From positions 1 through 62,439 of the forward strand of contig CAZSOZ010000006.1 of assembly GCA_964608675.1 (NCBI GenBank): a stretch of DNA of 62,439 bases, written 5' to 3'. This DNA is from an uncultured archaeon. GTDB lineage: Archaea; Iainarchaeota; Iainarchaeia; Iainarchaeales; 1-14-0-10-31-34. Below the pieces are notes generated by a model. The model saw nothing but the letters and a program-made list of their open reading frames with translations, made no database searches and was not told the origin of the DNA. Of the stretch, positions 20,929 to 29,534 are shown one piece after another. Position 1 is the stretch's first letter, and every line of letters begins with the position of its first letter. The position numbers and the translations under genes were made by a program.

Positions 20929-21324
20929 TTATTCTCTTAATTTAATTTCCAGTTCTTTTTCCAGTTTTTTTATTACTTTGTCTGATGGCTTGAATTTTTC
21001 TGCTTCAATTCTCTGCACAACAGATTCTTTTTCAAAAATTTTTTTAGCTAAATCCTTTAATTTTAATCCTTTTTTTTGGCGGGCCTGCATTATTTTTTTT
21101 CCAAAGCTTTCAACTAAATCAGATGCTTCAAGACCTGCAGAAGAAAAAGTTTTATTTGAAAAAAAATTTTTTTTAACTGTATTTTTTCTTTCAAAAACCT
21201 GTTCGTCAGGCAGTTCAATTGTTTTTCCAAGGGAAGTGCACGAATCACATACATCAAATTGTGTTCCGTCAATTAAAACAGTTTTTGGCTTAAAGAGTTC
21301 TTTTCCGCATATCTCACAATTCAT
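20929..21324 (-). CDS. archaeal multiprotein bridging factor aMBF1 (TIGR00270-like)
   Basis: CEICG..VCDSC zinc ribbon plus Cro HTH; divergent from pan. Confidence 0.92.
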   Translation of the reverse strand: MNCEICGKELFKPKTVLIDGTQFDVCDSCTSLGKTIELPDEQVFERKNTVKKNFFSNKTFSSAGLEASDLVESFGKKIMQARQKKGLKLKDLAKKIFEKESVVQRIEAEKFKPSDKVIKKLEKELEIKLRE

Positions 21325-21421
21325 TTAAACCAACCTCTTTCCAACCTTTTTTAATCTATAAGTAAATAAAGCAGTTATTCTTTTATTGATTGCTTTTATA
21401 TTAGTTTTTAAGTGAATTGAA

Positions 21422-22609
21422 ATGAATGAAGATAATCAAAGCACAATGGCAAGAAAGCCTCCTGTATTTGACATTTACGATTACGTAACAAAATTAGAAG
21501 AACAAGTAAGGTTATTGCAGACAGAAAAAAATTTAATTAAATCAAAAAACAATCAAATGGAAACAGAATTCCGAAAAATGAAAAAAGAAGTAGAAGAAAT
21601 GAGAAAACCTCCTTTGATTGTAGGAATCGTTCAAGAAAAAAATTCAGACAATACTGCAATAGTAAAAAATTCAAACGGCTTAGAATTTTTAGTTGAATTC
21701 GATGAAATTCATTCTCCTTTAATTAAAACTGGTTCACGGGTTGCCATGAATCAAAGAAGCTTAAGGATTACAAGAGTTTTAACTGACATAAAGGATCCAA
21801 GAGCAAGAGCCATGGAAGTAATAGAAAAACCTGATGCAGGATTTAATTCAGTTGGCGGACTAAAAAAAGAAATACTTGAATTAGAAGAAGCAGTTATTCT
21901 TCCTTTATTGTCTCCTGAAAAATTTGATAAATTTGGAATTGATGCTCCGTCAGGAATTTTATTGCACGGAGAAACAGGAACAGGAAAAACTTTGCTGGCA
22001 AAAGCAATTGCAAAAAAAACTAATTCTACTTTCATTAAAATCACTGCATCAGAATTAGTAAGAAAATACATTGGAGAAGGAGCAGGATTAGTAAGAGATG
22101 TATTCAAATTAGCAGAAGAAAAAAAGCCTTCAATTATTTTTATTGACGAAATAGATGCAATTGGAACCATGCGTTCAGATGAAACTTCAGGCGGAGACAG
22201 AGAAGTTCAAAGAACTTTAATGCAATTGTTGTCTGAAATGGACGGCTTCAAAAAAAGAAAAAACATTGCAATTCTTGGAGCAACAAACAGAATTGATGTA
22301 ATTGATCCCGCTTTATTGAGGCCTGGCAGATTTGATCGAATTGTTGAAGTTCCCTTGCCTGACATAAATGAAAGAGAAGAAATTTTTGCAATTCATTCAG
22401 CTTCAATGCCATTAAATGACATTAATTTACGAAAATTAGCTGAATTAACTGAAGGAAGTTCAGGAGCAGAAATTAAAGCAATTTGTATGGAAGCAGGAAT
22501 TCTTGCTTTAAGAGAAGACTCTGATTTTATTTCACAAAAACATTTCTTGAATGCAATAGAAAAAGTTTTAGGTTCAGAAGAAAAAAACGAAGAAAAAATG
22601 TTTAGTTAA
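21422..22609 (+). CDS. pan: proteasome-activating nucleotidase
   Basis: coiled coil-PP-OB, GETGTGKT, KYIGEG, FIDEIDA, REVQRT, LLRPGRFDR. Confidence 0.96.
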   Translation: MNEDNQSTMARKPPVFDIYDYVTKLEEQVRLLQTEKNLIKSKNNQMETEFRKMKKEVEEMRKPPLIVGIVQEKNSDNTAIVKNSNGLEFLVEFDEIHSPLIKTGSRVAMNQRSLRITRVLTDIKDPRARAMEVIEKPDAGFNSVGGLKKEILELEEAVILPLLSPEKFDKFGIDAPSGILLHGETGTGKTLLAKAIAKKTNSTFIKITASELVRKYIGEGAGLVRDVFKLAEEKKPSIIFIDEIDAIGTMRSDETSGGDREVQRTLMQLLSEMDGFKKRKNIAILGATNRIDVIDPALLRPGRFDRIVEVPLPDINEREEIFAIHSASMPLNDINLRKLAELTEGSSGAEIKAICMEAGILALREDSDFISQKHFLNAIEKVLGSEEKNEEKMFS

Positions 22610-22882
22610 ACCATCACACTCGTTTTGTGTGCAGACACTATCTTCCCTCAATAGAGCTTCCAAAAAAAAAAGATAACCCTCTTAGAACCAAGGAAAAAAC
22701 TAATTTTTTTCTTAGAATTGATTAAAACAATAAATTCAGGATAGAAAATAGGAGGAAAGAAAGGATTCTTTCCTCAATTCTAAGAGAGTTGGTTTGAACT
22801 CAGAAAAGAAATTGGGATAGGCTCACCTTCCAAGTTCAAATTAACGTATAATATTGGTGCATACGTTATATATAAACCTAAC

Positions 22883-22891
22883 GCATGTAAA
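22883..22891 (+). repeat. 9-bp target site duplication, left
   Basis: gcatgtaaa, repeated at 27624-27632. Confidence 0.92.
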
Positions 22892-22968
22892 GGGCTTGTA
22901 GATAAATAGGGAAATAGTGGCTTCTGTAGATAAATTAATTTAAAATAACTAATTTTCTAAATTATTAT

Positions 22969-23367
22969 ATGGCTGACAATTTGACTAAAACTCAGAGAAG
23001 CAAGTGTATGTCAAATATCAAAAGTAAATGGACTATTCAAGAAAGAAAAGTGCATAATTGCTTGAAAGGAAATAAAATAATGCATAAAATGCACCCTAAA
23101 ATTGAAGGAAACCCAGACATGATTTTAACTAACAGCAACACAGCTGTCTTCCTGCAGGGTTGTTTTTGGCATAACTGTCCTGCCTGTTATGTGGCTCCAA
23201 AAAGCAACACAAAATACTGGCTACCTAAAATAAAAAGAAATGTTGAAAGAGACAAGCTAAATGCAAAAGTACTTAAATCACAAGGATATAATGTAATCAC
23301 AATATGGGAACATGAAATCAAAAAAGACTTGAACTCTGCAATTAATAAGATGATTCAGAATGACTGA
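22969..23367 (+). CDS. vsr: very short patch repair endonuclease
   Basis: MADNLTKTQRSKCMSNIKSK, GNPD, GCFWH, VITIWEHE. Confidence 0.95.
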   Translation: MADNLTKTQRSKCMSNIKSKWTIQERKVHNCLKGNKIMHKMHPKIEGNPDMILTNSNTAVFLQGCFWHNCPACYVAPKSNTKYWLPKIKRNVERDKLNAKVLKSQGYNVITIWEHEIKKDLNSAINKMIQND

Positions 23368-24199
23368 AGAATTAAACAAAAAAGAAGCAATTGAATTTCT
23401 TGGAATTCCTCCTAAACACTTTGAAAACTACTTAAAAAACAGTGGAGAAATAAAAGGTTTCAAAATTAAAAACAGATGGTATTTCAAAAAAGACGAACTT
23501 GAAAGATGGGAAAAATTGAGAAAAGACAGAAGAATTATTCTTAGTTTAAAGGAATATGAAAAATGCTTTGAATTTGCCATTAAAATGGCTTACAGCACTA
23601 AAGCAAGACACGGCACAGGAATAAGAGGCATGAGAAGCGAAGTACAGATGGCAGATGATTTTATTTTAGGAATTTTAGCTGAACACGGTCTTAAAAAATT
23701 CCTGCAGGAAAAGTTCGGAGTAAAAATAAAACTTGATATGGAAGTTCATCCTGCGTATATAACTCCTCAAGACATTGACAAAATAATGGAGAACGGCAAA
23801 GAAAGAGAGCCACATCTCAAAGTAGCAGTAAAATCAAGCAAAATTAAAAACTGCTTTAATATACTTGACCCCTTAGAATATGAAAATGAAAATAGGAAGT
23901 CTGATATTTATGTTTTTGTAAGAGTGGGGCTTCCATCAGACCATTTATTTAGAATATTGAGAGAACATTCATTTTTTAAAAACGCAAAAGATTTTCTTGA
24001 AAAATCAGAAGGGTTCAAAAAAATAAAAGAACTAAAAGAAATCCCAATTTGGATTTGCGGATTCTCGTATCATTCTGAACTGGAAAAGGTAACTGAAATT
24101 CCTGGACAGAAATTTGATAATGGATTTAGATATGTTAAAAGTGTAGCAAACATGCATAATTTAACTGAAGAATGGAGCGGACTGCTTAAAAAACTATAA
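23360..24199 (+). CDS. putative type II restriction endonuclease with N-terminal excisionase-like HTH
   Basis: LNKKEAIEFLGI...G.I...K...RWYF HTH; E...D...xK PD-(D/E)xK-like pattern; lies between vsr and C5 MTase. Confidence 0.7.
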   Translation: MTEELNKKEAIEFLGIPPKHFENYLKNSGEIKGFKIKNRWYFKKDELERWEKLRKDRRIILSLKEYEKCFEFAIKMAYSTKARHGTGIRGMRSEVQMADDFILGILAEHGLKKFLQEKFGVKIKLDMEVHPAYITPQDIDKIMENGKEREPHLKVAVKSSKIKNCFNILDPLEYENENRKSDIYVFVRVGLPSDHLFRILREHSFFKNAKDFLEKSEGFKKIKELKEIPIWICGFSYHSELEKVTEIPGQKFDNGFRYVKSVANMHNLTEEWSGLLKKL

Positions 24200-24200
24200 T

Positions 24201-25142
24201 TCAAAGAACTTTTTTCATCTCTATTGCTATTCTTTCCACTAAAGGAACAGTAACACTATTCCCTGCCTGATGATAAAGTTTGCTGTCAGCAAGTTCTGGA
24301 AGCTTAAATTCTTCTGGAAATCCCTGCAACAAAAAGCATTCTTTAGGAGTTAATTTTCTTATTCCTTTGCTGTTTTTTATTATTGGGACATTATGTCCGC
24401 CAAGCCCCATGTTTGCTGTAAGAGTTGGTACAACACCTTTTTTGTTTTCTCTGACGTATTTTCTTCTCCATTGATAAACAGTGTTTTTTGAATTTACATC
24501 ATTTTTTATTCTATCAAATAAAGGTTTGTCGTTGTAATAGTATTTGTCTTCTGCTTCATTTGCAGTGTAATCTCTGAAGCTTTTTGTAAGAGGCGTTTTA
24601 TTTGGGAACCTAAAGTTTTCAAACTGTTTTTTATTTTTGAATCCTGCAATAAAGATTCTTTCTCTGTTTTGAGGAAGATTAGCATGAGTCATGCTGTTTA
24701 AAATCTCACTTGCTGTGTAGTAACCCAAATCATATTCCAAAGTTTTGTTTATTATTCTAAATGTTTTTCCTTTATCGTGTCCTTTTAAGTTTTTTACATT
24801 TTCAAGCAGAAAGGCTTCTGGTTTTCTTTCTTCCAATATTTCTGCAATTCTAAAAAACAAGTTTCCTCTGCCTTTCTCATCTCTAAAGCCTTGCCTATAA
24901 CCTGCAATGCTGAAGGCTTGGCACGGAAAACCGCCAAGCAGAACATTAAAGTCAGGTAGTTCTTCTATTGGAACATCCCAAACGCTTCTTGTGTCAAGTT
25001 GTGGATTAGAAAAATTTAAGTCATAAGTTTCCTTACAGGATTTATCAAAGTCATTGGCAAAAACTGTTTGAAATCCAACTCTTTCAAAACCAAAACGGAT
25101 TCCGCCAATGCCTGCAAATAAATCAACAGTTCTTAGTTTCAT
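24201..25142 (-). CDS. DNA (cytosine-5) methyltransferase
   Basis: DLFAGIGG, GFPCQ, ENVK, QNRER, QAGNSV; ATG 25142 preferred. Confidence 0.97.
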   Translation of the reverse strand: MKLRTVDLFAGIGGIRFGFERVGFQTVFANDFDKSCKETYDLNFSNPQLDTRSVWDVPIEELPDFNVLLGGFPCQAFSIAGYRQGFRDEKGRGNLFFRIAEILEERKPEAFLLENVKNLKGHDKGKTFRIINKTLEYDLGYYTASEILNSMTHANLPQNRERIFIAGFKNKKQFENFRFPNKTPLTKSFRDYTANEAEDKYYYNDKPLFDRIKNDVNSKNTVYQWRRKYVRENKKGVVPTLTANMGLGGHNVPIIKNSKGIRKLTPKECFLLQGFPEEFKLPELADSKLYHQAGNSVTVPLVERIAIEMKKVL

Positions 25143-25311
25143 ATAACCCATAATACTTTTGTTCAATTGTTTTTAAAAGTAACTAAGGTATTCTGCCGAT
25201 GAAACTCATTGTTTTTTGGTAAAAAAAAGCAGCATACAGTAGCTACAGCAACTTGTATAGACAGGGTACAAATTAGAGGGGTTTATATTCTTTTTGTATG
25301 GAGAGATTATT

Positions 25312-26097
25312 ATGAAAAAAGAAAAAAAAATTGATATCAAGTTACCAAGCGATACTGCTAAAGTAACAGTAGAGTATTTAAAGAAATATTGCGATGCAGT
25401 TGCCAAAACAGGGAAAAACTTTGAATTCAAGGACTTACAAAAACAAAGCTTGCCTCATAAAAGCGAAGACCCTATAAGAAGAAATCTTGCCTATTTAAAG
25501 TATTTAGGGTTTTTAGAAGAAAAAAGAGAAAAAATATCTAAAGAAGGGAAGAAAAAGAAGGTTCAAAGATTTAATCAGAAAAACGATCCGTTAGTCAAAG
25601 ACTATTTTTATTATTTAGTTTCTGGAAGAAACAATGATGCAGAAAGCTTATGGAAAAGAATAATTGGCAGACACCCTCTTTCTAAGTTCATACTTGCTGA
25701 GTTATTCAAAGAAAGAGAAATAGCGACAATTGATGATTTAGAAGACATCTTAAGAAAACAGGATAACAGCAGTAGCAATGCCAGATATTATAAAAACGGG
25801 GCTTATTTTGTTGGAACTTTGCTGGAAGATATAGAAATAGTAGATTTTGACAAAGTAAGTGAGAAATTTAAACTAAACGAAGAGAAAGTAAAAAAAGCAA
25901 TAGAAGAAAAACAAGAAGAAAGAACTGTAACAGAAGAAATTTCAGTGGGATTAAAAGAAAACCTTGAAAAAGGAGAAGTTTATCTGGTTTCTATAAAAGG
26001 AGCTGATCTTAACTTTGATTTCAAAGTGAGGAATAAAGAAGACTTAGAAGATGTAAAAACAATAATAAAAATTATGGAAAAGAAGATTAAATTATAA
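25312..26097 (+). CDS. hypothetical protein, transposon cargo
   Basis: about 260-aa ORF, possible winged-helix segments; no family recognised. Confidence 0.65.
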   Translation: MKKEKKIDIKLPSDTAKVTVEYLKKYCDAVAKTGKNFEFKDLQKQSLPHKSEDPIRRNLAYLKYLGFLEEKREKISKEGKKKKVQRFNQKNDPLVKDYFYYLVSGRNNDAESLWKRIIGRHPLSKFILAELFKEREIATIDDLEDILRKQDNSSSNARYYKNGAYFVGTLLEDIEIVDFDKVSEKFKLNEEKVKKAIEEKQEERTVTEEISVGLKENLEKGEVYLVSIKGADLNFDFKVRNKEDLEDVKTIIKIMEKKIKL

Positions 26098-26106
26098 AAA
26101 GTTAAT

Positions 26107-26180
26107 GCGACAGTAGGAAAATGGCAATCCACCGACCCTCATCAAGTTGGAGACTGCAGGTTCAAATCCTGCCTGCCGCA
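26107..26180 (+). tRNA. atypical tRNA-Met(CAT)-like gene inside the transposon, possibly pseudo
   Basis: GCGACAG/CTGCCGC (one mismatch), GGA/TCC D stem, CCGAC-CCTCATCAA-GTTGG, GCAGG-TTCAAAT-CCTGC, A73. Confidence 0.7.
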
Positions 26181-26231
26181 ATTAAAGACATGATTAATAT
26201 GTGTATAGAAATATTTAAATACGATGGTTAA

Positions 26232-26369
26232 TCAACTTTTAAGCCATTGTTTAACGGCTTTTTCTACAGCAATACTTATTGACCCTTTTTTAAAACCAAA
26301 CTTTTCAGCAGCTTTTTTTCTTAAAGCTTTTTCTGTCGCGTCTGAAAAAACTATTTGCATTCTGCCCAT
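26232..26369 (-). CDS. ribbon-helix-helix DNA-binding protein, 45 aa
   Basis: Manual translation MGRMQIVFSDATEKALRKKAAEKFGFKKGSISIAVEKAVKQWLKS*; divergent from transposase. Confidence 0.8.
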   Translation of the reverse strand: MGRMQIVFSDATEKALRKKAAEKFGFKKGSISIAVEKAVKQWLKS

Positions 26370-26371
26370 AA

Positions 26372-26445
26372 AACCACATATGTATATACACACTTGTGTT
26401 TATAAACCTTTCATCACATATGTGTATATGTGTATAAGTGATTAA
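26372..26445. promoter_or_regulatory. divergent RHH/transposase promoter region with repeated atatgtgtata-like sites
   Basis: atatgtgtata at 26418 and 26426 (also 26197); acatatgt palindromes either side of tttataaa. Confidence 0.55.
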
Positions 26446-27602
26446 ATGAAAGAAGAAATTTTTTGTTGGTCTTGTAGTTCAAAAAGAGTAATAAAGAAAG
26501 GCAAATATGTTTCGCCAAAAAAATCTTTTTGGAAGCAACAGTATAAATGTCTGAATTGTGGTTTAAGGTTTAATGACCAAACTAAGCATTTAATTGATTA
26601 TGAAACTTTACCTTTTCAGTATAAATCTAAGCCTGTGCCACAGCAAGATTGGAGTGCTTATTCTAAGGCTCAAATGCAAGAAAAATTAATGTTAATGGAT
26701 TTAGTTTCAGAATTAAACGACTTAATTAAAATAAATGAAAGTAAAACTGTTGGAAGAAATAAGTTTAACTTGAAGGATATTGTTTTTTGTTTGACTTTGA
26801 AATCTTATACTAAACTGTCAAGCAGAAGGTTAGCTTCTGATTTAGAGTTAGCTAAACACAAAGGTTTCATTTCTTCTGTTCCTCATTTTACTACTTTAAT
26901 GAATTATTTAGATGACAAAAGATTAACTCCTTTGTTTTTTGAATTAATTCGGTTGTCGGCTTTGCCTTTGAAACAAGCGGAAACCGATTTTGCAATAGAC
27001 AGTTCAGGTTTTAGTGTTAATCAGTTCGGCAGATGGTTAGATTACAAGTTTAACGGAGACACAAGATACAGAAAATGGATTAAGGCTCATATAATGACTG
27101 GGGTTAAATCTAACATTATTACTTCGGTTGAAATTTCTGACGGACACGCAGGAGACTCGCCAAGATTTATTCCTTTAGTGAATAAAACTAAAATTGATTT
27201 TTCAATCAAAGAAGTCAGTGCAGATAAAGCTTATTCAAGCAAGCAAATCAAAAGGCGGTTATTGAAGCAGGCGGAATGCCTTATATTCCATACAAAAGAG
27301 ATAGAAAAATTAAAAGAAAAGGCTTAACCATCTGGAATAAGTTATACTGGTATTTCAAAAACAAGCCTCAGGAATGGGGCGAACATTATCATAAGCGTTC
27401 TAATGTTGAAACCTGCTTTCATATGATTAAAACCAAATTCGGGAAAGAACTAATGACCAAAAACGAAATAGCAAATAGAAATGAATTATTATTGAAAATA
27501 TTTTGCCATAACTTATGCTGTTTGATTCAAGAATATTTTGAAAATCAATTAGATATTAATTTATCTACACAAATCCCGAAAATAGCAATTCCAATAAAAT
27601 AA
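26446..27602 (+). pseudogene. zinc-ribbon DDE transposase (IS4/IS5-like fold) split by a frameshift near 27242
   Basis: CWSC/CLNC; AIDSSG, SADKAY, then in another frame ANQKAVIEAGGMPYIP...YHKRSNVETCF. Confidence 0.9.
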
Positions 27603-27623
27603 GCCCTAATTATCTACAAGTCT

Positions 27624-27632
27624 GCATGTAAA
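27624..27632 (+). repeat. 9-bp target site duplication, right
   Basis: gcatgtaaa. Confidence 0.92.
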
Positions 27633-27834
27633 GACCTTGTTTAAAAACTTAGTACTTGATTGAAATTTTGCCTATTTTTTGTACCTGTGTGCAAAAACTG
27701 GTTTCTATATTAAATTTGTAATATGCTTTAATCAAGCAGTAAATGTTGTGGCATAAAATCTTACAGAGCATTTCATTAAAGTTTGCTGTAAGGTTTTTTG
27801 TCATTAAAGAATCACCAAACTTCTGCTTAATCAT
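27633..27834 (-). mobile_element. remnant end of a related transposon (transposase C-terminus plus probable TIR)
   Basis: MIKQKFGDSLMTKNLTANFNEMLCKILCHNI aligns with MIKTKFGKELMTKNEIANRNELLLKIFCHNL; end gaccttgt resembles nnncttgt TIR starts. Confidence 0.85.
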
Positions 27835-27900
27835 CAGGTTTTCTGAAAAGTTAACTTTAAATTCTCTCTTTCTACATAATATAAAGGGAGTTGGCTTAAA

Positions 27901-28728
27901 ATGAAAGGGAAAAGCACGCAAGAGCTGATTATCGAAATTTTAAGCAATGAATGGCCGTTAACAACAAAACAAATTTTCAATAAACTGAAAAGAAATTACG
28001 GCACAAACATTTCTTACCAAGCCGTTCACAAGCACTTGAAAGAAATGATTGAAGAAAAAACATTGACAAAAAACGAAAAAGAGTTTATGCTGAGTTATTC
28101 TTGGGTAAAAAAAACCTCTGATTATGGAAAGAAACTTGAAACCTTATTAAAAGAAACGAAAAGAGAAAGTGGATCTACTCTAATAATACTAAATTCTTTA
28201 GTGGAAGCAGGCAAATTTGTTGTAAACGATTTTTTAGGAACGGCTCCAGAAAAGCATTTCAATCCAGAAAACAAAGATAGTGTTTGTTTATTTAATCACG
28301 CTTGGCCAATAATTGGAGCCTCACAAGAGGATCATGAAAGAATGAAAAAAATATTGAGTGAAACTACTCACTACAATATTTGTGCACACAGCACTTTTTT
28401 GGATAGAATAACCTGCGATTATGTTGAAAAACTGGGAAAAAAGGTTGCTCTAAACAAAAAATTTTCTGCAAAGATTGACACTTTTGTTGAAGGAGACTAT
28501 ATCATGCAAGCATATCCTCCCAGAGAACTTGAAAATGAAATGGACAGACTTTACAAGAAAGTTAAAACCGAAAAAGATTTTGACATGAAAGAAATGTTTG
28601 AATTTGGATCAAAAAACTACGAAATAAAAATAATAATCTTCAAAAACCAGAAACTGGCAGACTCCTTGAGAGAAGAAGCAAAAAAACTTTATTTTGAAAC
28701 CCAAAAAGAAAAAAAAGGGAAAAAATGA
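27901..28728 (+). CDS. winged-helix protein with uncharacterised C-terminal domain
   Basis: IIEILSNEWPLTTKQIFNKL...ISYQAVHKHL. Confidence 0.75.
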   Translation: MKGKSTQELIIEILSNEWPLTTKQIFNKLKRNYGTNISYQAVHKHLKEMIEEKTLTKNEKEFMLSYSWVKKTSDYGKKLETLLKETKRESGSTLIILNSLVEAGKFVVNDFLGTAPEKHFNPENKDSVCLFNHAWPIIGASQEDHERMKKILSETTHYNICAHSTFLDRITCDYVEKLGKKVALNKKFSAKIDTFVEGDYIMQAYPPRELENEMDRLYKKVKTEKDFDMKEMFEFGSKNYEIKIIIFKNQKLADSLREEAKKLYFETQKEKKGKK

Positions 28729-29534
28729 CTAAAGAAGAAAGCGTCAGAAACAAAATCATTGAAATTTTAAGTGAAAACTGGCCATTAAAAGGAAAACAAA
28801 TTCACAACAAACTTCAAAGAGGTTATGAGGTTTCTGTTTCCTATCAAGCGGTTCACAAGCAATTAAAGCAAATGCTAGAAGAAAAAATTTTATTAAAAAA
28901 TAAATCAGGCTATTGCATTAATGAAGAATGGATTGAAAAAATCCAGAAAAACACTGAGTTAATGGCAGAAAAAATCAAAGGAAATGTAAAAGAAATAAAT
29001 TTAATTGAAATGAATGAAGGGGAATCAATTAACCTGTCATTTAATGGAATACTGGATTTAGGCTGGTTTTTGATTGACAAAATAATGAAAACCCCAAATC
29101 CTGAAAAGAAACCTGGTTTAGCTTTATGGAGATTTTGTTATTCTTTAGCAGGATTAGATGAAAAACATTTAACTGGATTTAAAGAAGCATGCGAAATGAA
29201 TGAATGGCATATGTTTGTAGAAGAAGAAAATGAAGCAGACAAAATGTTTGGGATAACCCTAAAAGAATATGGAACAAAAGAAGTTAAATTTGGAGTAAAA
29301 GACTGTGCAACAAAACTAAGTGATAAAATGATTTTAGGAGATTATATAACAGAAATAATTTACCCTAAAGGATTCAGAAAACTATGGGAAATACAGAACA
29401 GGCTTCCAAAAAAACTCGCAAAATTCAATTTAGGAAAACACATTCAATTAATGAGAATACCGCAGCCAAAAATAACAGTTATAGTAACAAAAAACAAAAG
29501 ATTAGCAGAAGAATACAGAAGAGAATATTTGTAA
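28725..29534 (+). CDS. winged-helix protein, tandem paralog
   Basis: IIEILSENWPLKGKQIHNKL...VSYQAVHKQL; ATGA overlap. Confidence 0.75.
   Translation: MTKEESVRNKIIEILSENWPLKGKQIHNKLQRGYEVSVSYQAVHKQLKQMLEEKILLKNKSGYCINEEWIEKIQKNTELMAEKIKGNVKEINLIEMNEGESINLSFNGILDLGWFLIDKIMKTPNPEKKPGLALWRFCYSLAGLDEKHLTGFKEACEMNEWHMFVEEENEADKMFGITLKEYGTKEVKFGVKDCATKLSDKMILGDYITEIIYPKGFRKLWEIQNRLPKKLAKFNLGKHIQLMRIPQPKITVIVTKNKRLAEEYRREYL

What the first reader, a model, noticed from the sequence alone, without database searches (positions are those of the whole stretch)
22883..27632. Single-transposase transposon carrying a full R-M/Vsr system, a tRNA-like gene and its own repressor
Seen: TIRs gggcttgtagataaataggg / agacttgtagataattaggg, a second perfect 15-bp internal IR (tgtagataaattaat) and an exact 9-bp TSD delimit 4732 bp, of which about 3.5 kb is cargo. 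It is not a composite transposon. Inference: a family of archaeal cargo transposons with a tRNA-RHH-transposase core that delivers defence genes; the intact TSD suggests recent insertion.
Basis: partly seen in the sequence, partly recalled or inferred. Interest (0 to 1): 0.85.

Follow-up and report, generated by a model that had tools for sequence, protein, structure and literature searches.

The report
Archaeal cargo transposon carrying restriction-modification genes
A 4.7-kb jumping gene in a tiny archaeal genome carries a complete DNA-defence kit between its own inverted ends, and it belongs to a family of similar elements in related archaea that ferry different sets of passenger genes.

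Summary
Window 22892-27623 (4732 bp) is bounded by 20-nt inverted ends (17/20), a second inner copy of the end motif on each side, and an exact 9-bp duplication GCATGTAAA. It holds one transposase gene (IS5-like DDE with an N-terminal zinc ribbon), so it is not composite. Cargo: Vsr, a type II restriction enzyme, a C5 cytosine methylase, a 261-aa tandem winged-helix protein and an aberrant tRNA(CAU)-like gene. A 45-aa RHH gene diverges from the transposase.

The closest homolog (84% identity, 386 aa) reads straight through.

The family inference holds. Of 21 relatives examined with long flanks, 10 have the same build: matching ends 2.8-8.6 kb apart, an exact 9-bp duplication, cargo on the left, and a small regulator plus transposase on the right. 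Counting the window, 4 of 11 elements carry R-M systems.

A sister element in the same genome has a clean empty site in 4 of 5 congeners. The proposed 'tRNA-RHH core' is not general: a tRNA occurs in 2 of 11, and other subgroups use different small regulators.

No matching description turned up in 8 literature searches. ISfinder could not be queried.

The parts
22883..22891 (.). left copy of the 9-bp target-site duplication GCATGTAAA
   Evidence: identical to 27624-27632
22892..22911 (+). left terminal inverted repeat (terminal copy of the end motif GGGCTTGTAGATAAAT)
   Evidence: It is the reverse complement of the right-end termini of relatives.
   Evidence: (I7). The same doubled-motif layout is seen at the left ends of L084, L085, L086, L087, L088.
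22969..23367 (+). Vsr very-short-patch repair endonuclease, 132 aa
   Evidence: Pfam PF03852 E 4.5e-16. TIGR00632 107.3 bits, above its cutoff.
23360..24199 (+). type II restriction endonuclease candidate, 279 aa, with an N-terminal HTH_17 domain; its start overlaps the Vsr stop
   Evidence: PADLOC REase_II PDLC03411 E 1.4e-13. HTH_17 E 3.6e-8. No PDB sequence match at E<=1.
24201..25166 (-). C5 cytosine DNA methyltransferase, 321 aa
   Evidence: PF00145 E 1.9e-81. TIGR00675 300.6 bits. Best solved relative is M.HhaI, full length, E 1.4e-52.
25312..26097 (+). 261-aa cargo protein of unknown role; predicted tandem winged-helix domains plus a small C-terminal domain
   Evidence: No Pfam, NCBIfam or PADLOC hit. 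41 relatives in 1.84 billion representatives. AF2 pLDDT 90.7. Foldseek hits only to winged-helix proteins, none at E<=0.001.
26107..26180 (+). tRNA(CAU)-like gene, 9 nt after the stop of the 261-aa gene; aberrant
   Evidence: ARAGORN tRNA-Met(cat). Rfam RF00005 48.1 bits with two non-canonical pairs marked. Rank 32 of 38 tRNA hits in the genome. C at position 37, read from the sequence. Free fold is not a cloverleaf, z -1.46.
26200..26212 (+). degenerate third copy of the end motif (TGTGTATAGAAAT, 11/13) in left-end orientation, between the tRNA-like gene and RHH; possible vestige of an older, compact left end
   Evidence: 5 of the 6 window matches at <=2 mismatches lie inside the element; 2.93 are expected in the whole window
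26232..26369 (-). RHH (CopG-like) small DNA-binding protein, 45 aa from the ATG (MGRMQIV...), divergent from the transposase
   Evidence: Pfam RHH_6 E 7.7e-5, 23.7 bits, below the cutoff of 27. Conserved at L047, L076, L077, L078. The profile hits PDB 2k6l at E 2.2e-4 and CopG at E 0.6.
26370..26445 (.). 76-bp divergent control region: palindromic TATA-like TTTATAAA flanked by two CACATATGTrTATA repeats (putative RHH operators)
   Evidence: Comparable GTGTATATGTGTAT repeats around a TATA-like box sit in the same place in L007, L047, L052, L060. Function is inferred.
26446..27327 (+). transposase, N-terminal part (293-aa ORF): zinc ribbon plus the first part of the DDE domain
   Evidence: PF01609 E 2.2e-12. 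NCBIfam transpos_IS5_2 92.6 bits, below the cutoff of 140; IS1/IS1595 Zn domain E 4e-4.
27241..27246 (+). approximate site of the 1-nt frameshift that splits the transposase
   Evidence: The intact homolog P0002 reads ...SADKAYLSKANQKAVIEA... across it. Alignment.
27231..27602 (+). transposase, C-terminal part in the -1 frame (108-aa ORF from 27276), with the Y-x2-R-x3-E-x6-K signature
   Evidence: PF01609 E 6.9e-8
27555..27577 (-). right subterminal copy of the end motif, inside the end of the transposase gene
   Evidence: I7; exact TGTGTAGATAAAT at 27559-27571
27604..27623 (-). right terminal inverted repeat, starting 2 nt after the transposase stop codon
27624..27632 (.). right copy of the 9-bp target-site duplication
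27633..27834 (-). outside the element: solo right end (terminus GACCTTGTTTAAAAAC plus the last ~47 codons) of an older, related transposon; the new element's duplication abuts its tip

Best explanation
Window 22892-27623 is a unit (non-composite) transposon. In ISfinder terms it resembles a 'transporter IS'. Its family uses an IS5-like DDE transposase with an N-terminal zinc ribbon.

Proposed mechanism:
- The transposase recognises a ~17-nt motif (GGsCTTnnGTAGATAAAT) present twice at each end, once terminal and once subterminal.
- It cleaves at the outer GG/AG.
- It joins the ends to target cuts staggered by 9 bp, which leaves the 9-bp duplication.

Layout: left end, variable cargo, small DNA-binding regulator transcribed away from the transposase, transposase, and the right end immediately after the stop codon. 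The 45-aa RHH protein most likely represses the shared 76-bp divergent promoter region and so throttles transposition.

Cargo here:
- a Vsr-REase operon and a convergent C5 methylase, i.e. a type II R-M system with its T:G mismatch repair partner;
- a tandem winged-helix protein;
- an odd tRNA(CAU)-like gene.

This copy's transposase carries a 1-nt frameshift. It is probably now immobile, unless the frameshift is an assembly error.

Shown: the sequence anatomy, the homologies, the recurrence of the architecture in 10 relatives, and an empty site for a sister element.

Inferred: motif binding, RHH repression, cut-and-paste versus replicative chemistry, and activity of the R-M system.
For: Anatomy and single transposase.

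Family-type ends: the right termini of 14 related transposase loci end in ...(T)TAATCTACAAG(G/T)C(C/T) or ...TTTAAACAAG(C/T)CC within about 20 nt of the stop codon. The window's left end is the reverse complement of that terminus.

Recurrence: 21 relatives were examined with up to 20 kb of flank. In 10 of them the reverse complement of the right end was found 2.8-8.6 kb upstream (5 with 16/16 matches), with an exact 9-bp direct repeat abutting both ends. With the window that makes 11 of 11 delimited elements with a 9-bp duplication.

Cargo:
- L083: type IIG R-M, PD-(D/E)XK nuclease and S8 subtilase.
- L079: Vsr, HNH enzyme and two C5 methylases.
- L089: REase_II (E 8e-48) and a C5 methylase.
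- L088: subtilase.
- L076: an ATPase-wHTH protein and tRNA-Leu.

Cargo turns over against the transposase tree. Transposases at 73% identity (L084, L088) carry unrelated cargo, while transposases at 43% (L083, L088) share a subtilase.

Mobility shown for a sister element in the same genome (G000:C1:332748-338166, 5419 bp). In 4 of 5 congeners its two flanking genes are adjacent, and the DNA runs colinearly through the insertion point.

The left junction of the window's element is also present, identical, in a contig from a second sample of the same study (record 9).

Regulator: RHH conserved at 5 loci, with similar repeats around a TATA-like box.
Against: - The transposase is split by a frameshift, so autonomy of this copy is not shown.
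- No second copy of this exact element was found. The end motif occurs in G000 only among 196 genomes of the order; the one other hit has no transposase beside it. 60 exact matches in metagenome contigs all lack the transposase.
- No empty site for this copy. Synteny between the left-flank PAN gene and the right-flank genes is not kept in G004, G005 or G006. Laid contigs gave no credible joint: the only one spanning the element has a 21-nt side.
- 11 of 21 relatives could not be delimited. Most have their upstream flank cut by a contig end, but L081 and L164 had 7.6 and 12 kb of flank and still gave no left end.
- End-motif binding and RHH repression are inferred only. RHH_6 is below Pfam's cutoff.
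- The base composition of the element (GC 0.29-0.34) does not differ from its flanks.
Confidence: 0.85

Rival explanations
1. The mobile unit is only a compact RHH-transposase IS of about 1.4 kb, whose real left end lies just after the tRNA-like gene near 26190-26212. Under this reading the outer left end at 22892 is a solo end of another copy, and the R-M block is ordinary neighbouring DNA, at most mobilised once by use of a surrogate end.
For: A degenerate end motif (11/13) in left-end orientation lies at 26200-26212, between the tRNA-like gene and RHH. The closest homolog, P0002 (84%), sits on a contig of only 2260 bp, so compact forms may exist. A tRNA sits at the same place in L076.
Against: The exact 9-bp duplication flanks the outer ends, not the inner motif. 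All 10 delimited relatives also have distant left ends with 9-bp duplications, and no compact form was seen among the 21 loci. The tRNA-like gene has no full-length counterpart in this genome or in 196 genomes of the order, so it does not look like a host tRNA used as a target.
Confidence: 0.07
2. The inverted ends and the 9-bp repeat are chance in an AT-rich genome. The region is a defence island that merely lies next to a decayed IS.
For: Short inverted and direct repeats are common here. 97 of 300 simulated windows gave some 11-mer inverted pair with an abutting 9-bp repeat when low-complexity sequence is allowed. Local alignment scores of true and spurious end pairs overlap.
Against: With low-complexity sequence excluded, 13 of 975 simulations gave one. 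The left end matches the family terminus found independently in other genomes. The doubled motif, the right end placed 2 nt after the stop codon and the 9-bp length recur in 10 relatives.
Confidence: 0.04
3. The segment is a remnant of an integrated plasmid or virus that carried an R-M system and a tRNA, with an IS inserted in it.
For: tRNA genes and R-M systems are frequent on viruses and plasmids (general knowledge). The tRNA-like gene is foreign to the host set.
Against: No integrase, replication or structural gene lies inside or beside it. The boundaries are transposon ends with a short duplication, not att repeats. The neighbours are chromosomal genes, with the proteasome-activating ATPase to the left.
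Confidence: 0.03

Closest known systems
IS5-family insertion sequences (ISfinder / NCBIfam transpos_IS5_2; homologs named 'IS5 family transposase' by NCBI)
   Same: DDE_Tnp_1 (PF01609) transposase. Best NCBIfam model is IS5_2. Short terminal inverted repeats and a fixed short target duplication. From recall, not from a call: the IS903 subgroup of IS5 also makes 9-bp duplications.
   Different: Scores stay below the IS5 equivalog cutoff: 92.6 bits for the window's fragment and 121.4 bits for an intact paralog, against 140. There is an added N-terminal zinc ribbon and a dedicated divergent small regulator. The end motif is doubled. Every delimited member is 2.8-8.6 kb with passenger genes, not 0.8-1.6 kb.
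Transporter IS (tIS) / unit transposons of bacteria
   Same: One transposase, inverted ends and passenger genes as an integral part of the element. This is the definition in PMC9330008 (passages read).
   Different: Host domain (archaea with ~1-Mb genomes) and transposase clade. Cargo is dominated by R-M and other non-resistance genes. Krupovic et al. 2019 (PMC6563490, Discussion passage) listed passenger-carrying transposons among element classes not detected in archaea.
Transposon-like R-M units of Furuta, Abe and Kobayashi 2010 (PMC2853133; passages read)
   Same: R-M genes between imperfect inverted repeats, inserted with a short (8-bp) target duplication.
   Different: Those units are bacterial and carry no transposase; the authors suggest action in trans. 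No archaeal case survived their screen. Here the transposase and its regulator are on board.
Aloposons of Heimdallarchaeia (PMC8813620; passages read)
   Same: Archaeal elements called transposons that carry cargo.
   Different: Aloposons integrate at tRNA sites, carry tandem giant genes (3,000-6,000 aa) and a ParA-like ATPase, and are tens of kb long. There is no similarity in ends, size or gene set.
Composite transposons (two IS copies flanking cargo)
   Same: IS-derived ends moving cargo.
   Different: Only one transposase gene and no repeated IS body are present. The neighbouring remnant at 27633-27834 lies outside the duplication and belongs to another subgroup.

Membership tests
IS5 family (transposase) | DDE_Tnp_1 catalytic domain | tested here: met
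   PF01609 on both halves, E 2.2e-12 and 6.9e-8
IS5 family (transposase) | score above NCBIfam's IS5 equivalog cutoff | tested here: not met
   transpos_IS5_2 scores 92.6 bits (window ORF1) and 121.4 bits (intact paralog L004) against a cutoff of 140. It is the best-scoring family, with IS1182, ISNCY and IS4 far lower.
IS5 family (element) | compact element of roughly 0.8-1.6 kb holding only transposition genes (size range recalled) | tested here: not met
   4732 bp here. The 10 delimited relatives are 2834-8571 bp, all with extra genes.
IS5 family (element) | listed in ISfinder with these ends | not testable with these tools
   No ISfinder access.
Unit transposon / transporter IS | single transposase, terminal inverted repeats, target duplication | tested here: met
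Unit transposon / transporter IS | passenger genes lie inside the ends and recur as an architecture in relatives | tested here: met
Unit transposon / transporter IS | demonstrated mobility (empty site or several copies) | tested here: inconclusive
   Not found for this copy. Found for the sister element in the same genome, with an empty site in 4 of 5 congeners.
Composite transposon | two IS copies at the ends | tested here: not met
   One transposase gene inside; tblastn finds no second body.
Type II R-M system with Vsr | C5 methylase, restriction enzyme and Vsr endonuclease as adjacent intact genes | tested here: met
   PF00145, PADLOC REase_II PDLC03411 and TIGR00632 above its cutoff. The same trio is found in G001, G026 and G171.
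Type II R-M system with Vsr | enzymatic activity and recognition sequence | not testable with these tools
   The best solved relative of the methylase is M.HhaI, but GCGC is not avoided in the genome (observed/expected 1.02). Specificity is unknown.
tRNA | Rfam RF00005 at or above the gathering score | tested here: met
   48.1 bits against 29
tRNA | canonical stems and a purine at position 37 | tested here: not met
   Two non-canonical pairs are marked by cmscan (acceptor A:C, anticodon stem C:A), and C follows the anticodon. The MFE fold is not a cloverleaf.
Ribbon-helix-helix repressor | Pfam RHH model above its cutoff | tested here: inconclusive
   RHH_6 at 23.7 bits against 27. A profile of 5 homologs hits PDB 2k6l at E 2.2e-4 and CopG at E 0.6.

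The most novel reading that the evidence does not exclude
These elements are an undescribed, widespread family of autonomous cargo transposons of DPANN-type archaea. Features:
- an IS5-like zinc-ribbon transposase with a dedicated small repressor;
- a doubled end motif;
- a 9-bp duplication;
- cargo always on the left.

No cargo-free form was found among the loci examined. The family shuttles R-M systems, candidate defence nucleases, proteases, secreted proteins and even tRNA genes between ultra-small genomes. That would make transposons, rather than plasmids or viruses, a main vehicle of defence-gene exchange in these organisms. It would also fill the gap of 'passenger-carrying transposons not detected in archaea'.
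Probability: 0.55. Interest if true: 0.8.

Novelty: new variant of a known kind. Interest (0 to 1): 0.68.

Why it matters
Transposons with on-board passenger genes are the classic vehicles of resistance and defence genes in bacteria. A 2019 survey of archaeal integrated elements listed them among classes not detected in archaea (PMC6563490, Discussion passage). A 2026 census of archaeal IS does not mention passenger genes in its main text (PMC13343696, term search).

Here one element and ten relatives show a simple, recognisable rule:
- the right end follows the transposase stop codon;
- its reverse complement lies kilobases upstream;
- a 9-bp duplication flanks both.

This rule would let the roughly 2,500 database homologs be mined for cargo. 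The hosts have ~1-Mb genomes with few defence systems. A transposon route for R-M, Vsr and other genes bears on how such reduced archaea acquire and lose immunity. The small transposase-plus-repressor module with defined ends is also a candidate genetic tool for archaea that currently have none.

Tried and rejected
- Empty site for the window's element. Contigs of 4 runs of one study were laid on 21000-29500. The source run holds the whole stretch, and a second sample holds an identical contig across the left junction. The only joint spanning the element has a 21-nt side at 90% likeness and is not credible. Contigs cannot show rare empty-site reads.
- Synteny in congeners. The gene right of the element has orthologs in G004, G005 and G006, but the left-flank genes are not next to them. 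No comparator was found.
- Other copies. The end motif was sought in 196 genomes of the order and in metagenome contigs. It occurs only in G000, plus chance hits without a transposase.
- The search for related loci on metagenome contigs failed five times. On genome contigs with the single protein it gave only 3 distant loci.
The contigs of the two closest homologs (P0002 at 84%, P0003 at 67%) could not be read.
- A first automatic search for ends within 1.5-kb flanks gave only noise-level pairs, because the left ends lie further away.
- The SWIM-finger sister subfamily could not be delimited: no duplication at the best pair in 10 of 10 loci. I make no claim that those are simple IS.
- Restriction-site avoidance gave no signal for GCGC.
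- The Rfam 'gathering' scan of 104 kb missed the tRNA in L076, which the local scan then found at 48.4 bits. Absence of tRNAs in the other elements therefore rests on ARAGORN alone.
- The ESM Atlas gave only unnamed clusters for the 261-aa protein.
- A programmed frameshift was considered and rejected. The conserved N of the 'NL/NQ' position is already encoded in the downstream frame before the A-run, and all relatives are single ORFs.

Full report
**1.

The sequence shows GCATGTAAA at 22883-22891 and again at 27624-27632. Directly inside these lie GGGCTTGTAGATAAATAGGG (22892-22911) and, on the other strand, AGACTTGTAGATAATTAGGG (27604-27623), matching at 17 of 20 positions. A second, perfect 15-nt inverted pair, TGTAGATAAATTAAT, lies at 22925-22939 and 27555-27569 (I7). 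The unit is 4732 bp.

The 17-nt core of the ends occurs exactly twice in the 62-kb window, here and on opposite strands. Chance expectation is 0.24.

A simple simulation is not very discriminating in this AT-rich DNA. 97 of 300 Markov windows contain some 11-mer inverted pair with an abutting 9-bp repeat. After excluding low-complexity words, a filter chosen after the fact, 13 of 975 do, and the real window contains exactly one: this element. The comparative evidence in section 4 is the stronger argument.

**2. What is inside**

- Vsr (22969-23367). TIGR00632 scores above its cutoff.
- A 279-aa protein overlapping the Vsr stop (23360-24199). It has an N-terminal HTH_17 domain and matches a PADLOC type II restriction-enzyme model at E 1.4e-13.
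- A convergent C5 cytosine methylase (24201-25166). Its best solved relative is M.HhaI over its full length.
- A 261-aa protein (25312-26097) with no family. It has 41 relatives among 1.84 billion representatives. A confident model (pLDDT 90.7) shows tandem winged-helix domains, with no convincing solved homolog.
- A tRNA(CAU)-like gene (26107-26180), 9 nt after the previous stop codon.
- A 45-aa RHH gene on the other strand (26232-26369).
- A 76-bp control region.
- The transposase (26446-27602), whose stop codon lies 2 nt before the right end.

Only one transposase gene is present, so the element is not composite.

**3.

*The transposase is broken.* A 293-aa ORF and an overlapping 108-aa ORF in the -1 frame together align to single ORFs of 386-405 aa in every relative. 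The closest homolog (P0002, 84% identity) reads ...SADKAYLSKANQKAVIEA... straight across the break. This is a 1-nt loss near 27241-27246, either a mutation or an assembly error. It is not a programmed shift.

*The tRNA-like gene is real by Rfam but odd.*
- It scores 48.1 bits and ranks 32nd of 38 tRNA hits in this genome.
- It has an A:C pair in the acceptor stem, a C:A pair in the anticodon stem and a C after the anticodon.
- It does not fold into a cloverleaf on its own.
- The genome has two other CAU tRNAs and a tRNA-Ile(UAU), so this one is an extra.
- It resembles no other tRNA of the genome.
- Among 196 genomes of the order it matches only generic T-arm stretches.

**4. The family**

The transposase belongs to a large group: 2513 database hits, named 'IS5 family transposase' in MAGs labelled Diapherotrites, Iainarchaeum and Micrarchaeota. 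It is present in 33 of 215 genomes of the phylum at E<=1e-40. NCBIfam's IS5_2 model is the best match but stays below its cutoff.

Printing the DNA after the stop codon of relatives showed a shared terminus...TAATCTACAAG(G/T)C(C/T) or ...TTTAAACAAG(C/T)CC. The window's left end is its reverse complement.

With up to 20 kb of flank for 21 loci, the reverse complement of each right end was then sought upstream. In 10 loci it was found 2.8-8.6 kb away, five times as a perfect 16-mer, each time with an exact 9-bp direct repeat abutting both ends.

The other 11 loci are unresolved. Most have their upstream flank cut by a contig end. Two (L081, L164) had long flanks and still gave no left end. No transposase-only form was seen.

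The left ends carry two direct copies of the motix about 10 nt apart, as in the window.

**5. Cargo of the relatives**

| Element | Size | Cargo |
|---|---|---|
| L083 | 8571 bp | type IIG R-M enzyme, PD-(D/E)XK nuclease, S8 subtilase |
| L079 | 7691 bp | Vsr, HNH enzyme, two C5 methylases, a protein matching candidate defence models PDC-S11/S18 |
| L089 | 4736 bp | type II restriction enzyme (E 8e-48), C5 methylase |
| L088 | 4497 bp | subtilase |
| L076 | 2967 bp | ATPase-winged-helix protein, a well-formed tRNA-Leu(UAA) next to an RHH gene |
| L084 | 3540 bp | DUF5320, DUF134 |
| L082, L085, L086 | 2834, 4265, 3605 bp | a shared secreted protein |
| L087 | 5419 bp | three unknown proteins |

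R-M systems are thus in 4 of 11 elements, and a tRNA in 2 of 11.

The gene next to the transposase is always a small DNA-binding protein, but of different kinds:
- RHH of the window's type at 5 loci;
- a second RHH-like type at 3 loci;
- an AbrB-like protein, often with a DUF7342 winged-helix protein, in others.

Cargo does not follow the transposase tree. L084 and L088 (73% identical transposases) share no cargo, while L083 and L088 (43%) share the subtilase.

**6. Mobility**

For the window's own copy I found no empty site and no second copy. The left junction is present, identical, in a second sample of the same study.

For the sister element in the same genome (G000:C1:332748-338166, duplication GGTTTTCGG), the two flanking genes are adjacent in 4 of 5 congeners. 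The relatives' DNA runs colinearly through the insertion point once the element and one copy of the duplication are removed. This is direct comparative evidence that these end-bounded cargo units insert as units.

**7. Neighbourhood**

The duplication on the right abuts the tip of a solo right end of an older relative: GACCTTGTTTAAAAAC plus the last ~47 codons, at 27633-27834 on the minus strand.

In L076 a 55-bp left-end-plus-right-end mini-element precedes the full element, and the 9-bp repeat occurs on all three sides. Insertion next to related ends may therefore be favoured, but two cases do not show it.

A degenerate end motif in left-end orientation at 26200-26212 may be the trace of an older compact element. 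That is the basis of the main rival reading, which the position of the duplication and the relatives argue against.

**8. Comparison with what is known**

The element works like a bacterial transporter IS or unit transposon (definition in PMC9330008).

It recalls the transposase-less 'transposon-like' R-M units of bacteria, which have 8-bp duplications (PMC2853133). No archaeal case survived that screen.

Passenger-carrying transposons were listed as not detected in archaea in PMC6563490. Aloposons are a different thing (PMC8813620). A 2026 archaeal IS census does not treat passenger genes (PMC13343696).

Eight full-text searches found no description of this family.

**9. Verdict**

It is a new variant of a known kind: a unit transposon or tIS, in archaea, in a divergent IS5-like clade, with R-M and other cargo. 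This particular copy is probably disabled.

Noticed in passing
G000:C1:332748-338166 (L087:5749-11167): A second family member lies in the same genome: 5419 bp, duplication GGTTTTCGG, intact 388-aa transposase (54% identical to the window's). Its cargo is three unknown proteins, with AbrB-like and winged-helix regulators. Its right end supplies the last ~10 codons of the neighbouring 193-aa membrane-protein gene. 4 of 5 congeners have the uninterrupted site.
   Followed up: yes
window 27633-27834 (-): Solo right end of an older, related transposon (terminus plus the last ~47 codons). The new element inserted with its duplication touching the tip of this remnant.
   Followed up: partly
L076:9637-9709 region (G112:C23; oriented 2452-2524): A 55-bp mini-element made of a left end and a right end only. 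It is flanked by TTTAAAAAG and directly followed by the full 2967-bp element and the same 9-mer again. It may be a tandem insertion into the same target or an internally deleted copy.
   Followed up: partly
window 26380-26392 (-) and 26417-26437: The repeats in the RHH/transposase control region (TGTGTATATACAT, CACATATGTGTATATGTGTAT) resemble the transposon end motif TGTGTAGATAAAT. The promoter and the ends might be read by the same protein.
   Followed up: no
L041 (G001:C27:1-4621), L042 (G026:C11), L043 (G171:C74): The Vsr / restriction enzyme / C5 methylase trio recurs in three other genomes of the order, in other gene orders (Vsr 60-61%, R 36-41%, M 29-32% identical). In G001 it lies beside a SWIM-finger IS5-like transposase. 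The other two contigs (7.2 and 6.6 kb) hold no transposase.
   Followed up: partly
whole genome G000: Three CAU tRNAs (C1:210740, C5:43243 with an intron, and the element's) plus a tRNA-Ile(UAU) at C2:176426. GATC (observed/expected 0.52) and CTAG (0.54) are the most avoided 4-mer palindromes, while GCGC is not avoided (1.02).
   Followed up: partly
window 27901-29534 (+): Two tandem paralogous ~270-aa genes lie right of the element. They belong to a family expanded in congeners (up to 8 matches in G004, some with in-frame stops). Their function was not examined.
   Followed up: no
L019 (G017:C1:145523-149131): Another SWIM-type IS5-like transposase lies next to a C5-methylase-like gene (SLFSGCGG... 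motif). The boundaries were not examined.
   Followed up: no
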